Positions 15,873 to 58,045 of a stretch of DNA of 64,000 bases are shown here, piece after piece. The notes beneath the pieces are model-generated. The model was not told the origin of the DNA. It was given only the letters and a program-made list of their open reading frames with translations, and searched no databases. This DNA is from Escherichia coli. Its GTDB lineage: Bacteria > Pseudomonadota > Gammaproteobacteria > Enterobacterales > Enterobacteriaceae. The stretch lies in NCBI RefSeq assembly GCF_041886205.1, contig NZ_CP169029.1. One strand, given 5' to 3'. Both the position numbers and the translations under genes were made by a program. Positions within the stretch are counted from its first letter, which is position 1, and each line of letters opens with the position of its first letter.

Positions 15873-16810
15873 GCGTTCGTCCTCTCTGCAATACGCAGAA
15901 CTGAACTACGGGCACGAGGGTTCTCAGCCACCTCTTCTTCGCCCGGCATTAACTTGCCTAGTGCTCGCAGCTGACGGCCACCCAGTTTTTTGAGCTGCTC
16001 TTCAGTCATCGGTAACCCTGCCGGAACTTGTGGACCGCGGCTGTTTTCACGCATAAAGCGTTTCACAATGCGGTCTTCCAGTGAGTGGAAGCTGATGATC
16101 GAAAGCCGCCCACCCGGGGCCAGCACGTTGAGCGAGCTTTTTAGCGCCTGCTCTATCTCCTCCAGTTCACTGTTTACCCAAATGCGCACCGCCTGGAAGG
16201 TACGGGTCGCGGGATGTTTGAACTTGTCTTTCACCGGCGTTGCGGCAGCCACGACTTCCGCCAGTTCTTTGGTGCGGGTCATCGGCTGTTCGCGGTTACG
16301 CTCGACAATGGCGCGGGCAATGCGTTTGGCAAAACGCTCTTCACCATAGGTTTTCAATACCCAGGCGATATCCGCTTCTTCTGCGGTTTGTAGCCATTCA
16401 GCGGCTGACTGCCCACGGGTTGGGTCCATACGCATGTCCAGCGGACCATCGCGCATAAAGGAAAAGCCGCGTTCAGCATCATCAAGTTGCGGTGAAGAGA
16501 CGCCAAGATCGAGGAGAATGCCGTCGATCTTGCCGATAAGATCGCGCTCGGCAACGTATTCGCCCAGCGCGGAGAAAGGTCCGTGGATGATGGAGAAGCG
16601 CGGATCATCAATAGTCTTCGCAACGGCGATAGCCTGCGGGTCGCGATCGATCGCCAACAAACGCCCCTCTTCGCCAAGCTGCGAGAGGATCAGACGTGAG
16701 TGACCACCGCGACCAAAAGTCCCATCAATGTAGATGCCATCAGGACGGATATTGAGGCCATTAACGGCTTCATCCAGCAGCACCGTAGTATGTTTATAGT
16801 TTTCCATCAT
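15869..16810 (-). CDS. rsmH: 16S rRNA m4C1402 methyltransferase RsmH/MraW (313 aa)
   Basis: ORF track gives 356 aa; known protein begins at internal [15 protein letters not shown] (43 codons in), giving 313 aa. Start coordinate derived from ORF-track arithmetic. Confidence 0.9.
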
Positions 16811-16811
16811 T

Positions 16812-17270
16812 TTATAGAGACAAGTCCTGCAGTCGCTCCGATAAGTCTCCGGTAGCCAACTGCTCTGCGTCGATATCTTCCTTGACCTGTTGATGCCAGG
16901 TTGTTTCATCCCACAGCTCAAACTTGTTGAACTGTCCAACCAGCATCACTTCTTTTGTCAGCCCGGCATGTTGCCGCAGTACTGGCGCGATTAACAATCG
17001 ACCTGCGCCATCCATCTGACATTCGCTGGCATGACCTAACAGTAGGCGCTGCACACGGCGCTCAACCGGGTTCATGCTCGACAGACGCGATAATTTTTGC
17101 TCGATAATTTCCCATTCAGGCAGGGGGTAAAGCAGCAGGCACGGGTGATGAATGTCAATGGTGCAAACCATTTGACCGGCAGCGTTCTCAAGCAGCTGTT
17201 CCCGATAACGGGTAGGCACTGATAAGCGCCCTTTGCTGTCGAGATTGACTAACGTTGCTCCCCGGAACAT
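16812..17270 (-). CDS. mraZ: Transcriptional regulator MraZ (152 aa)
   Basis: ORF track 164 aa; known protein starts at internal [19 protein letters not shown]...; first gene of the dcw cluster. Confidence 0.92.
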
Positions 17271-17400
17271 GCCAGCCTCACCCCTTATTCCCACTTTGCC
17301 CCACAATTTCCCACTGAAAGGAGTTTACGGAGCGGAGGAAAAGCTTGTCAAGCCAGTCACAAGGCATACCGAGGTAAAAAACCCGATGTTTACGGCTAAT
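17271..17400 (-). promoter_or_regulatory. Pmra promoter region of the dcw cluster, containing the MraZ operator repeats
   Basis: Immediately upstream of mraZ; three TGGGN direct repeats at 10-bp spacing (minus strand TGGGA-N5-TGGGG-N5-TGGGA, about 17289-17313). Promoter elements themselves not mapped. Confidence 0.7.
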
Positions 17401-17826
17401 ATCCGCGTTGTTTATTTTACGTCCAACGAGCGCAGCAAATTAACGTTATGAATAGCTGTAAGAAAAAATCCCTCATCGTCATCACCGTTTTAAAATGACT
17501 CACTATTTTCCACAGCAAATATAAAGTGTCAGTTTGCGACGCGAGCGGCATTTTAGGACATATCTTCCCCGGTTAACAGTCCCTGTTGCGTCTGTGTGGC
17601 GCTTGATGCCAGCGGGTTTGCGCAAAAGCAAAGAAAAGTGCTTGTTAAATCGGCAATTCATCTCTGCATGTAACAAAATAATGCAAAAACGCGCTGTCGA
17701 TATCACTTAATTATTGTGAATTTCAGCTGATGAGTTAAGTAACGGGCGGGTTTAAAAGGACTTATCAATAATAGTCAGGAATAGTCTTATTTACTTTAAG
17801 GATATTGATGTCCATTCCCGTACTCT

Positions 17827-17867
17827 ACGCGCCAGAGGGAAATTAACCTGGCGCGTATTTTTGTTTG
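17827..17867 (+). terminator. Intrinsic-terminator-like hairpin (9-bp perfect GC-rich stem, 12-nt loop, then ATTTTTGTTTG) at the cra 3' end, oriented for the + strand
   Basis: acgcgccag-agggaaattaac-ctggcgcgt followed by a T-rich tract on the + strand; on the minus (cra) strand the hairpin is preceded by an A-tract and has no U-tract after it. Confidence 0.5.
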
Positions 17868-17871
17868 CGGC

Positions 17872-18876
17872 TTAGCTACGGCTGAGCACGCCGCGGCGAT
17901 AGAGATTACGTTTAATGCGCGTTAAACCAGGTTTTGGCTTACGCGGTTCGTCCAGGCTTGCCAGGACAATCTCCAGCACACGCTCTGCGACATCGCGGTG
18001 ACGTTGAGCCACTGCCAGTACCGGGCATTGCAGGAAATCCAGAAGTTCGTTATCACCAAAAGTAGCAATAGCCAGATCGGAAGGTAACTTACCGTCACGA
18101 CGCAGTGTGACATCCATTACCCCTTGCAACAAAGCAAACGAGGTGGTGAACAGCGCCTGCGGCATCGGATGCGTTTCCAGCCATTTTTCGAATAACTGGG
18201 CAGCCGCCTCCCGCTCATAGCTGTTGGCATAAAGGAAATGCACTTCGCGCGGATCATCTTTCCAGGCAGTACGGAAACCTTGTTCACGCAGGAAGCTGAC
18301 AGAAAGCTCCGGCAGCGCGCCAAGATAAAGCACCGTCTCGGCGGGAAACTTACGTAACTCTTCCGCCAGCATTTCGGCATCATCCTGATCGGCACCAACC
18401 ACGCTGGTAAAGTGTTCACGATCGAGGGCGCGGTCCAGCGCGACAATCGGGAACGGGTCGTTAGCCCAGCGTTGATAAAAAGGATGCTCAGGAGGCAACG
18501 ACGTCGAAACAATAATGGCATCAACCTGACGCTGTAAAAGGTGCTCAATGCACCGCATTTCGTTGTCTGGCTGATCTTCTGAGCAGGCAATCAGCAGTTG
18601 ATAACCCCGTTGCCGCGCCTGGCGTTCAAGATAGTTAGCGATGCGGGTATAGCTGGTGTTCTCCAGATCGGGGATCACAAGACCAATAGAACGTGTGCGT
18701 CCAGCACGAAGCCCAGCTGCCACGGCGTTCGGGTGGTAATTGTGCTCACGCACCACAGCCATGACTTTTTCAACGGTTTTGTCGCTCACACGGTATTGCT
18801 TCGCTTTGCCGTTAATAACATAGCTTGCAGTGGTCCGCGACACTCCCGCCAGCCGAGCGATTTCATCCAGTTTCAC
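17872..18876 (-). CDS. cra: Catabolite repressor/activator Cra (FruR), LacI family (334 aa)
   Basis: ORF track 334 aa, [25 protein letters not shown]... HTH; full-length match to FruR. Confidence 0.96.
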
Positions 18877-19055
18877 AATTGCCCCTTGCGTAAAATGTAA
18901 AAACCATAGCCATTGTACTGGTATGGGTTAAATTCATTAACATCTAAGCGCAGAAAATTAACTGCGGCAACTGCTTTTATTCCAGGTTCCCACTGATTTC
19001 GCAAAAATAGCCCAACGTGACATGTTGGGCTGCAAATTGCGCATTGAGATCATTC

Positions 19056-19547
19056 TCAACGCATTATTTTATCGCCGCGTGAAAGTCCGACCACACCAGA
19101 GCGAGCAACTTCCACAATTTTTGCCACATCACGAATCGATGCTAAAAATGCATCAAGCTTATCGCTGGTGCCTGCTAATTGAACGGTATAAAGCGAGGGT
19201 GTGACATCGATAATTTGCCCACGGAATATTTCCGTATTACGTTTCACTTCGTCACGCCCGTAACCGCTGGCCTGAATTTTCACCAGCATGATTTCCCGCT
19301 CAACATGCGCGCCCTGCCCCAACTCACTCACGCGCAAGACATCGACCAGCTTGTGTAATTGCTTTTCGATCTGCTCAAGTACTTTTTCATCGCCCACGGT
19401 CTGGATGGTCATACGCGATAATGTCGGATCGTCGGTTGGCGCAACGGTCAGGCTTTCAATGTTGTAGCCACGCTGGGAAAAAAGGCCAATCACGCGGGAT
19501 AACGCGCCTGATTCATTTTCGAGTAAGACTGATAATATCCGGCGCAT
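19056..19547 (-). CDS. ilvH: Acetolactate synthase III small (regulatory) subunit IlvH (163 aa)
   Basis: ORF track 173 aa; known start at internal [19 protein letters not shown]...; ACT domain. Confidence 0.93.
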
Positions 19548-23302: not shown

Positions 23303-23331
23303 AAACCCGCGCCATTGCGCGGGTTTTTTTA
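23303..23331 (+). terminator. leu attenuator (intrinsic terminator)
   Basis: cccgcgc-cattg-gcgcggg followed by T7 immediately after leuL and before leuA. Confidence 0.88.
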
Positions 23332-58012: not shown

Positions 58013-58045
58013 CAGTGAGCGCGACTCACAAAATCGCGCTCACTG
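58013..58045. other. Perfect 11-bp inverted repeat (stem-loop) about 47 bp downstream of the folA stop
   Basis: cagtgagcgcg-actcacaaaat-cgcgctcactg; no U-tract on either side. K-12 has a REP element in the equivalent position (recollection). Confidence 0.6.

What the first reader, a model, noticed from the sequence alone, without database searches (positions are those of the whole stretch)
17827..17867. Terminator-like hairpin at the cra 3' end is oriented for the opposite strand
A 9-bp perfect GC-rich stem with a 12-nt loop is followed by ATTTTTGTTTG on the + strand, the signature of an intrinsic terminator for transcription running into the cra 3' end. On the cra sense strand the hairpin has an upstream A-tract but no U-tract. 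This would fit an unannotated + strand transcript from the 600-bp mraZ-cra spacer, or an inefficient or Rho-assisted cra terminator.
Basis: seen in the sequence. Interest (0 to 1): 0.3.

Follow-up and report, generated by a model that had tools for sequence, protein, structure and literature searches.

The report
cra mRNA 3'-end hairpin, backwards T-tract
The hairpin just after the cra gene is real and conserved, and it marks where cra messages end, but in E. coli its run of T's faces the opposite strand, which is a small unexplained oddity and not evidence of a new gene.

Summary
A perfect 9-bp stem (10 bp with a U-A pair) and a 12-nt loop lie at 17826-17857. TTTTTGTTTG follows on the + strand. 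The cra (-) strand has an A-run before the stem and no U-tract after it. Chance gives about 0.02 such hairpin-plus-tract sites per 64 kb.

The window is an Escherichia ilvIH-cra-mraZ region, with all genes on the - strand.

Evidence that the hairpin serves the cra transcript:
- Published long-read data for K-12 place a cra 3' end 4 nt past the stem, with further ends scattered over the next 50 nt.
- 74 Enterobacteriaceae loci carry a hairpin just after the cra stop. It folds better on the cra strand (47 v 15), because the wobble pairs fit only that strand.
- By an approximate score, 13 loci have a canonical cra-sense terminator, 58 have no good U-tract on either strand, and only three E. coli-type sequences score as terminators on the opposite strand.

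The best reading is a U-tract-less 3'-end stem-loop of cra. Termination is probably Rho-assisted and diffuse, and the RNA is then trimmed back to the stem.

The + strand transcript is unsupported but not excluded. I found no good promoter, conserved ORF, Rfam match or called Term-seq 3' end. No TSS data for that strand could be read.

Overall this is ordinary, with a minor lineage-specific twist.

The parts
17826..17857 (-). GC-rich stem-loop 14 nt after the cra stop codon: 10-bp stem (9 perfect pairs plus a closing U-A) and a 12-nt loop. Read as the 3'-end stem-loop of the cra mRNA.
   Evidence: Sequence; folding; rarity; compensatory changes and sense-only wobble pairs in Escherichia and Citrobacter; a positional equivalent in 74 Enterobacteriaceae loci.
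17858..17867 (+). T-tract TTTTTGTTTG directly after the stem on the + strand. On the cra strand it is the A-run before the stem.
   Evidence: Sequence. An A4-A5 run is kept in all Escherichia sequences examined while the neighbouring bases vary. It is shortened to A4 plus G in B2-type E. coli and absent in all other genera.
17822..17822 (-). Window position equivalent to the published K-12 cra transcript 3' end (NC_000913.3 89082), 4 nt 3' of the stem on the cra strand.
   Evidence: PMC6131387, Supplementary Data 1, Rich_TTS sheet. Coordinates were transferred through the gap-free window/K-12 alignment.
17872..18876 (-). cra (fruR) coding sequence, 334 aa.
   Evidence: ORF list. The sequence is identical to RefSeq WP_000762401.1, 'catabolite repressor/activator', in strain 6EVA. 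K-12 annotation.
17712..17791 (-). C-rich, G-poor stretch (C 24%, G 10%) 40-120 nt downstream of the hairpin on the cra strand. Candidate Rho loading region (inferred).
   Evidence: Composition. The class description comes from PMC6061677.
17776..17789 (-). Conserved TAAGACTATTCCTG motif, 37 nt from the hairpin, resembling an RcsB/RcsAB box. It is a neighbour of the hairpin and is not shown to be part of its function.
   Evidence: The pattern TNRGAN4TCY occurs in 68 of 69 loci 35-130 nt after the cra stop, against 5 hits in 55.9 kb elsewhere in the spacers. Consensus strings are from PMC4325325 and PMC7913699.
17800..17813 (+). Small 5-bp hairpin GGATATTGATGTCC, which folds only on the + strand because it needs a U.G pair. 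It would lie inside a hypothetical + strand RNA of about 70 nt.
   Evidence: It does not vary in the stem in 7 of 8 Escherichia sequences, and K-12 breaks one pair. There is no covariation, so this is weak evidence.
17762..17790 (+). Best + strand promoter-like match near the hairpin (TTATCA-N17-TCTTAT). It scores at background level and is listed only as the candidate start of the rival sRNA reading.
   Evidence: Own position-weight scan: score 8.7, and matches this good occur 2.6 times per kb per strand in the window.
16812..17270 (-). mraZ, the next gene on the same strand. Its promoter Pmra (TTGACA-N18-TAAACT) is at 17351-17322.

Best explanation
The hairpin is the 3'-end stem-loop of the cra mRNA.

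RNA polymerase transcribing cra (window - strand) passes the stop codon and transcribes the stem-loop. No U-tract follows, so it mostly does not release there by the classical intrinsic route. Release happens over the next tens of nucleotides, most likely with the help of Rho loading on the C-rich, G-poor RNA just downstream. 3'-to-5' exonucleases then trim the tail back to the stable stem, so steady-state cra transcripts end at or just after the hairpin.

The A-run before the stem is a feature of the Escherichia lineage. As a by-product or a secondary adaptation, it makes the same DNA read as a good intrinsic terminator on the opposite strand.

Shown here:
- The structure exists and is non-random.
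- It is conserved with compensatory changes.
- Its variants fit the cra strand.
- Published cra 3' ends lie at it.

Inferred:
- Involvement of Rho and of exonuclease trimming.
- The secondary status of the T-tract.
For: 1. Published K-12 long-read data (PMC6131387). From the cra TSS 87968, 20 reads end at 89082 (4 nt past the stem), 24 end within 50 bp downstream and 6 pass further. For comparison, the canonical ompX terminator in the same table has 306 reads at the site and 11 within 50 bp. The cra ends are anchored at the hairpin but spread out.

2. The cra strand has no U-tract, and the approximate terminator score there is about -49 to -61.

3. C/G is 2.3 at 40-120 nt downstream on the cra strand. 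PMC6061677 describes this class: Rho-dependent transcripts end immediately after stable stem-loops without U-rich tails, with C-over-G enrichment downstream, and are trimmed by PNPase and RNase II.

4. All 74 Enterobacteriaceae loci have a hairpin just after the cra stop. When each strand is optimised on its own, the best hairpin is more stable on the cra strand in 47 loci and on the opposite strand in 15 (mean difference -2.3 kcal/mol, Wilcoxon p = 3e-6). A control region 120-220 nt downstream shows no bias.

5. In the Escherichia plus Citrobacter alignment, 85% of cells are paired and 4 pairs change on both sides. In the core stem the single-sided changes are C-G to U.G and A-U to G.U. Both are tolerated only on the cra strand.

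6. In E. albertii the hairpin is -17.2 kcal/mol on the cra strand but -8.2 on the opposite strand.

7. By the approximate score, 13 loci (assigned by eye to Kosakonia, Phytobacter, Franconibacter, Cedecea and others) have a canonical cra-sense terminator at the same place and 58 have no good U-tract on either strand. PMC6061677 proposes that terminators switch between the Rho-dependent and intrinsic classes through changes in uridine content downstream of the stem-loop, and this spread fits that proposal.
Against: - Rho dependence is not demonstrated. The bicyclomycin study lists no Rho region on the cra strand between K-12 79798 and 107527. Its 800-nt windows overlap the strong mraZ promoter, so this is inconclusive.
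- Term-seq did not call a dominant cra 3' end here, although only about 900-1200 dominant ends are listed per condition.
- The cra TTS was called only in rich medium, not in M9.
- PMC6061677 reports that stem-loops of this class are not associated with upstream A-tracts. This one has an A-tract, and the A4-A5 run is kept across Escherichia while the flanking bases vary. 'By-product' does not explain that.
- The species used in the strand-bias test are related, so the p-value overstates independence.
Confidence: 0.7

Rival explanations
1. The T-tract is itself selected. The element is a working one-way intrinsic terminator for the + strand. It stops antisense transcripts that start in the AT-rich cra-mraZ spacer before they enter cra, and so shields cra expression. 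This can coexist with the stem's role on the cra mRNA.
For: - On the + strand there is a 10-bp GC stem followed directly by U5GU3. The approximate terminator score is +11 to +20, similar to the two-sided terminator at 23303-23326 in the same window.
- An A4-A5 run next to the stem is kept in every Escherichia sequence, although the 16 nt between the cra stop and the stem are otherwise among the least conserved in the spacer.
- In MOD1-EC7003 the stem grows by compensatory changes and the T-run still follows it directly.
Against: - No + strand transcript is documented. There is no dominant Term-seq 3' end at K-12 8903x-8904x and no reverse-strand TTS there.
- + strand promoter matches are at background level.
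- The antisense terminator quality is confined to E. coli-type sequences. The score is about -3 in E. whittamii and -33 in E. albertii, where an A.C mismatch halves the stem energy.
- B2-type E. coli interrupt the run, giving ACUUUUGUU on the + strand.
- Wobble variants across relatives fit the cra strand only.
Confidence: 0.2
2. The hairpin is the terminator of a discrete unannotated + strand small RNA of about 70 nt. It would start near 17797, after a TTATCA-N17-TCTTAT promoter that overlaps the RcsB-like box, and end near 17866. It would have a 5' mini-hairpin, a single-stranded middle and a terminator with a U-tail.
For: - The sRNA-like layout folds on the + strand.
- The mini-hairpin needs a U.G pair, so it folds only on the + strand.
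- The 60 nt between the stem and the conserved box are 75-80% invariant among Escherichia, against 69% for the whole alignment.
Against: - The promoter match is weak: score 8.7, with 2.6 such matches per kb per strand. Its -35 decays to TTATCG in E. albertii and TTATGG in E. whittamii (read from the alignment).
- There is no Rfam family.
- No Term-seq 3' end was called, although that method detects abundant sRNAs well.
- K-12 breaks a pair of the mini-hairpin.
- Two natural E. coli isolates carry IS1 inside this stretch.
- The segment is not conserved outside Escherichia.
Confidence: 0.05
3. The hairpin alone terminates cra transcription without Rho, as a weak, U-tract-less intrinsic terminator. 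The ends seen downstream would be read-through products that stop at pause sites.
For: - cra 3' ends lie 4 nt after the stem.
- No Rho region was called here.
- 13 of 74 related loci have a true intrinsic terminator at the same position, so the site is a termination point across the family.
Against: - By established knowledge of E. coli RNA polymerase, efficient intrinsic termination needs the U-tract.
- More reads end in the 50 bp after the site (24) than at it (20), unlike canonical terminators in the same table.
- The 4-nt distance is shorter than the usual 7-9 nt tail (own knowledge). It suits an exonuclease stop better.
Confidence: 0.12
4. Chance palindrome or repeated element (REP/BIME) with no role in RNA.
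For: None beyond the fact that palindromes do occur by chance.
Against: - Expected frequency is 0.02 per 64 kb.
- It is single-copy in 5,423 E. coli genomes.
- Compensatory changes keep the stem.
- A hairpin sits at the same position in 74 loci from many genera.
Confidence: 0.01

Closest known systems
Protective 3' stem-loops of Rho-dependent E. coli transcripts (Dar and Sorek 2018, PMC6061677)
   Same: - A stable GC-rich stem-loop lies right after the gene.
- The steady-state 3' end is a few nt after the stem.
- There is no U-rich tail.
- C exceeds G downstream.
- Ends beyond the stem are diffuse.
- Relatives switch between U-tract and no U-tract at the same site.
   Different: - Bicyclomycin sensitivity and exonuclease trimming were not shown for cra.
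- This hairpin has an A-run upstream, which that study says the class lacks.
Canonical intrinsic (Rho-independent) terminator
   Same: On the + strand it has every sequence feature: a 10-bp GC-rich stem, a loop, and a U-rich tail starting directly at the stem.
   Different: - It faces away from the only known transcription unit that reaches it.
- On the cra strand the defining U-tract is missing.
- No RNA ending at the + strand U-tract has been seen.
- The 12-nt loop is large for this family.
Bidirectional terminators (A-tract, hairpin, U-tract), such as the can/hpt example in PMC6131387 and the hairpin at window 23303-23326
   Same: One hairpin could serve both strands, and an A-run sits on one side.
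   Different: - Only one of the two tracts is present, so it is at most one-way.
- The flanking genes are co-directional, not convergent.
cra terminators of other Enterobacteriaceae (for example GGCAGCGCAAGCTGCC-TTTTTTG in locus L071, assigned by eye to the Kosakonia group)
   Same: Same position just after the cra stop, and the same role expected for the cra transcript.
   Different: - Those have a sense-strand U-tract.
- Their stem sequences are not homologous to the Escherichia/Citrobacter CGCCAG...CTGGCG stem.

Membership tests
Intrinsic terminator, read on the + strand | GC-rich stem-loop of adequate stability | tested here: met
   10-bp stem, -18.3 kcal/mol for the hairpin alone and -22.7 in the 66-nt context.
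Intrinsic terminator, read on the + strand | U-rich tract of about 7-8 nt directly 3' of the stem | tested here: met
   TTTTTGTTTG at 17858-17867. Approximate score +11 to +20.
Intrinsic terminator, read on the + strand | Transcripts arrive on that strand and RNA 3' ends fall in the U-tract | tested here: inconclusive
   No 3' end was called at K-12 8903x-8904x in Term-seq or in long-read TTS tables. Both miss rare or short RNAs. TSS tables for that strand could not be read.
Intrinsic terminator, read on the cra (-) strand | U-rich tract directly 3' of the stem | tested here: not met
   The tail is AGAGUACGGGAAUGG, with 2 U in 11 nt. Approximate score -49 to -61.
Protective 3' stem-loop of a Rho-dependent transcript | Steady-state 3' end immediately downstream of a stable stem-loop | tested here: met
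   Published TTS at K-12 89082, 4 nt after the stem. This rests on one dataset in one condition.
Protective 3' stem-loop of a Rho-dependent transcript | No U-rich tail, and C-over-G bias downstream | tested here: met
   C/G is 2.3 at spacer positions 81-160.
Protective 3' stem-loop of a Rho-dependent transcript | Read-through rises when Rho is inhibited | tested here: inconclusive
   No Rho region is listed on the cra strand here in PMC7815308 supplementary file 2. The 800-nt windows include the mraZ promoter.
Protective 3' stem-loop of a Rho-dependent transcript | Longer tails accumulate in pnp or rnb mutants | not testable with these tools
   This needs RNA-seq from exonuclease mutants. The supplementary tables of PMC6061677 are not held.
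Bidirectional terminator | A-tract upstream and U-tract downstream of one hairpin | tested here: not met
   Only the A-tract is present on the cra strand.
Small RNA gene on the + strand | Own promoter, defined 5' and 3' ends, and conservation of the unit | tested here: inconclusive
   The terminator is present. The promoter is at background level. There is no Rfam hit and no Term-seq end. Conservation is limited to Escherichia.
REP/BIME repeated palindromes | Many copies per genome | tested here: not met
   Median of one place per genome in 5,423 E. coli genomes.

The most novel reading that the evidence does not exclude
In the E. coli lineage the cra 3' stem-loop gained an A-run. That turned it into a one-way intrinsic terminator facing backwards. 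It would be a dedicated shield that stops antisense transcription from the AT-rich, highly conserved regulatory region upstream of the cell-division (dcw) cluster from running into cra. Alternatively it would be the end of a short + strand RNA whose start overlaps a family-wide RcsB-like box.
Probability: 0.15. Interest if true: 0.4.

Novelty: new member of a known kind. Interest (0 to 1): 0.17.

Why it matters
For the finding itself, very little changes. It assigns an unannotated hairpin to the end of the cra message. It also gives a clear example, across 74 related loci, of one gene's 3' end varying between a classical terminator and a U-tract-less stem-loop.

If the backwards T-tract proved functional, it would be an example of a terminator kept to block antisense transcription between two co-directional genes.

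The more useful leads are next to the hairpin. The roughly 600-nt cra-mraZ spacer keeps its length across the family. It contains an RcsB-like box in 68 of 69 loci and a nearly invariant block of about 50-65 nt. None of these is annotated, and all lie upstream of the main cell-division gene cluster.

Tried and rejected
1. Coding reading on the + strand. A 12-codon ORF (17808-17846) has an AAGGA ribosome-binding site and stops in the hairpin loop. By my own reading of the and alignments, K-12 loses both the site (AAGCA) and the stop (giving 25 codons), and E. albertii shows non-conservative changes. Rejected.

2. Coding reading of the conserved spacer block. The ORF starting at ATGCCGCTCGCG varies from 10 to 75 aa among loci, while its first 11 codons do not vary even at third positions. 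It is a DNA-level element, not a gene.

3. Conserved structured RNA in the spacer. RNAalifold consensus energies are 0 to -1.7 kcal/mol on both strands. Rejected.

4. Rfam search of 16500-19500. Only a weak, sub-threshold osmY match inside mraZ.

5. Repeated element. The sequence is single-copy.

6. An outer helix enclosing the A-run (CCG/CGG in E. coli, AUUACG/CGUAAU in E. whittamii). RNAalifold did not keep it. Not pursued.

7. Literature dead ends.
- No held supplements for PMC6061677, PMC9023263, PMC8848933 or PMC4161252.
- The Cappable-seq TSS file of PMC4782308 is truncated to one strand.
- Two papers requested by PMC id were not held.
- The TERMITe tables have no entry for this site.
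- Full-text searches for the intergenic region found nothing relevant.

8. My first strand-bias test chose hairpins on the cra strand and was therefore biased. I repeated it with each strand optimised separately and with a control region.

9. An RcsB-dependent promoter next to the box. No convincing -10 at the right spacing in either direction, from my own reading of the listing.

Full report
**Where this is.** The window is an Escherichia chromosome segment, the reverse complement of the K-12 ilvIH-cra-mraZ-rsmH region.
- The spacer is 100% identical to E. coli strains 6EVA and wlxctx60, and 95-99% identical to nearly all of 5,423 E. coli genomes.
- It aligns to K-12 without gaps at 99%.
- All genes lie on the - strand: mraZ 16812-17270, cra 17872-18876 and ilvH 19056-19547.
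- cra transcription therefore runs from high to low coordinates, and the hairpin lies just downstream of the cra stop.
- Nothing is annotated in the 601-bp cra-mraZ spacer in K-12 or in 6EVA.

**Checking the observation.** The description is accurate.
- On the + strand the order is T-ACGCGCCAG (17826-35), a 12-nt loop, CTGGCGCGT-A (to 17857), then TTTTTGTTTG (17858-67).
- The cra strand has CAAACAAAAAT before the stem and AGAGTACGGGAATGG after it.
- Both strands fold into the hairpin.
- Only four distinct hairpins of this quality exist in the 64 kb. Such a hairpin with a T- or A-rich flank is expected 0.02 times in shuffled sequence.
- An approximate terminator score (formula recalled from memory) is clearly positive on the + strand and strongly negative on the cra strand.
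- The neighbouring ilvH gene has an ordinary sense-facing terminator at 19031-19009.

**What experiments already say.**
- SMRT-Cappable-seq of K-12 (PMC6131387) lists, in rich medium, a cra transcript from TSS 87968 to a 'novel TTS' at 89082.
- The column key gives 94 reads at the TSS, 20 ending at the TTS, 24 ending within 50 bp downstream and 6 passing further (median 119 nt).
- Position 89082 is 4 nt after the stem on the cra strand (window 17822).
- In the same table, the canonical ompX terminator has 306 reads at the site against 11 within 50 bp. The cra ends are anchored at the hairpin but spread out.
- No reverse-strand TTS is listed at 8903x-8904x. That library favours long RNAs.
- Term-seq (PMC7815308) lists no dominant 3' end between 83641 and 89783 on either strand. 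It reports only about 900-1200 dominant ends per condition.
- Its bicyclomycin table has no Rho region on the cra strand between 79798 and 107527. The 800-nt test windows overlap the strong mraZ promoter, so this is inconclusive.

**What relatives say.** I fetched 80 Enterobacteriaceae cra loci.
- Every one that could be parsed has a hairpin within a few tens of nt after the cra stop, although the stems are not homologous between genus groups.
- By the approximate score, 13 loci have a canonical cra-sense terminator, 58 have no good U-tract on either strand, and 3 score as terminators only on the opposite strand. Those 3 are the window, K-12 and Escherichia sp. MOD1-EC7003.
- E. whittamii is borderline (-3). 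E. albertii fails (-33) because a C-to-T change gives U.G on the cra strand but A.C on the other.
- With each strand optimised on its own, the hairpin is more stable on the cra strand in 47 loci and on the other strand in 15 (p = 3e-6). A control region shows no bias. The species are related, so the p-value is generous.
- In an Escherichia plus Citrobacter alignment, 85% of cells pair and four pairs change on both sides. In the core stem the single-sided changes are wobbles that work only on the cra strand.
- Selection therefore acts on the hairpin as part of the cra RNA.

**The backwards T-tract.**
- The A-run (A4-A5) next to the stem is present in all Escherichia sequences, although the 16 nt between the stop codon and the stem are otherwise poorly conserved.
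- B2-type E. coli have AAAAG and a 9-bp stem.
- No other genus has the run.
- The tract is real and limited to one lineage. Any polymerase arriving on the + strand would probably stop there.
- I found nothing that sends polymerase that way. + strand promoter matches are at background level. There is no conserved ORF (and my own reading of the 12-codon ORF). There is no Rfam family and no called 3' end.
- A hypothetical + strand RNA of about 70 nt (17797-17866) has an sRNA-like fold. It lies in a stretch that is somewhat better conserved within Escherichia.
- Against that RNA, its promoter is weak, K-12 breaks its small hairpin, and two natural isolates carry IS1 inside it.

**Mechanism.**
- The best fit is the class described by Dar and Sorek (PMC6061677). 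These are stable stem-loops without U-tails that mark the steady-state ends of Rho-terminated transcripts. They have C-over-G bias downstream and are trimmed by PNPase and RNase II.
- The cra site shows the stem, the missing U-tract, the nearby 3' end, the diffuse ends and a C/G of 2.3 downstream.
- It departs from the class in having an upstream A-run.
- Rho dependence and trimming are inferred, not shown.
- That paper proposes that terminators switch class through changes in uridine content downstream of the stem-loop. The spread of states at the cra 3' end across genera fits this.

**Verdict.** The + strand transcript is unsupported but untested. The element is an ordinary member of a known kind, with a small lineage-specific oddity.

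**Seen on the way.**
- The spacer is not empty. Its length is kept at 559-662 nt in 69 loci.
- It holds several blocks conserved across the family.
- One is an RcsB/RcsAB-box-like motif 37 nt from the hairpin, present in 68 of 69 loci (consensus strings).
- Another is a nearly invariant block of about 50-65 nt that is neither coding nor structured as RNA.

Noticed in passing
window 17776-17789 (- strand reading TAAGACTATTCCTG): A motif matching the RcsB box core TNRGAN4TCY, and the capitalised positions of the RcsAB box TaAGaatatTCcta, lies 35-130 nt after the cra stop in 68 of 69 Enterobacteriaceae loci. Elsewhere in the same spacers there are 5 hits in 55.9 kb. It is not annotated. I found no convincing promoter next to it in either direction.
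   Followed up: partly
window 17517-17582 (spacer positions 290-355 from the cra stop): A nearly invariant block, GATATGTCCTAAAATGCCGCTCGCGTCGCAAACTGACACTTTATATTTGC, is conserved across the family and 100% identical among Escherichia species. It has no conserved RNA structure and no conserved ORF. It contains promoter-like CTGTTA-N18-TAAAAT and CTGACA-N16-GAAAAT matches facing mraZ. It is probably a DNA-level regulatory element about 230 nt upstream of Pmra.
   Followed up: partly
window 17669-17687, 17640-17657 and 17432-17467: Further family-wide conserved blocks in the cra-mraZ spacer: TTTTGCATTATTTTGTTACAT, ATTGCCGATTTAACAAGCAC and TTTTTTCTTACAGCTATTCATAACGTTAATTTGCTG. Function unknown.
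   Followed up: no
window 17271-17871: The cra-mraZ spacer keeps its length (559-662 nt) in 69 loci from many genera. That is unusual for a region with no annotated feature.
   Followed up: partly
loci L090 (E. coli 23CRST031) and L086 (E. coli 1585m1); window equivalents about 17824 and 17802: Two natural isolates carry an IS1 element inserted 2 nt after the hairpin stem and 24 nt after it, respectively. This separates the hairpin from the rest of the spacer.
   Followed up: partly
window 17710-17738 (- strand): The second-best promoter-like match in the spacer after Pmra is TTAACT-N17-AATAAT (score 11.2). It faces mraZ, and its AATAATTAAGT does not vary among Escherichia.
   Followed up: no
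window 23303-23326: A perfect 10-bp hairpin, AAACCCGCGC-loop-GCGCGGGTTT, has an A-tract on one side and a T-tract on the other. It scores as a terminator on both strands. It served as an in-window comparison.
   Followed up: no
window 58015-58043 and 58673-58701: Two more perfect GC-rich hairpins of at least 9 bp with 9-11-nt loops and no T- or A-rich flanks.
   Followed up: no
window 17808-17846 (+ strand): A 12-codon ORF (MSIPVLYAPEGN) has a good AAGGA ribosome-binding site and stops in the hairpin loop. K-12 lacks both the site and the stop, so it is not a conserved gene.
   Followed up: yes
locus L002 4188-4274 (window about 18958-19044, - strand): RefSeq annotates a 28-aa 'hypothetical protein' (WP_032314075.1) between ilvH and cra in strain 6EVA. 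K-12 has no such gene there. It overlaps the ilvH terminator hairpin at 19009-19031.
   Followed up: no
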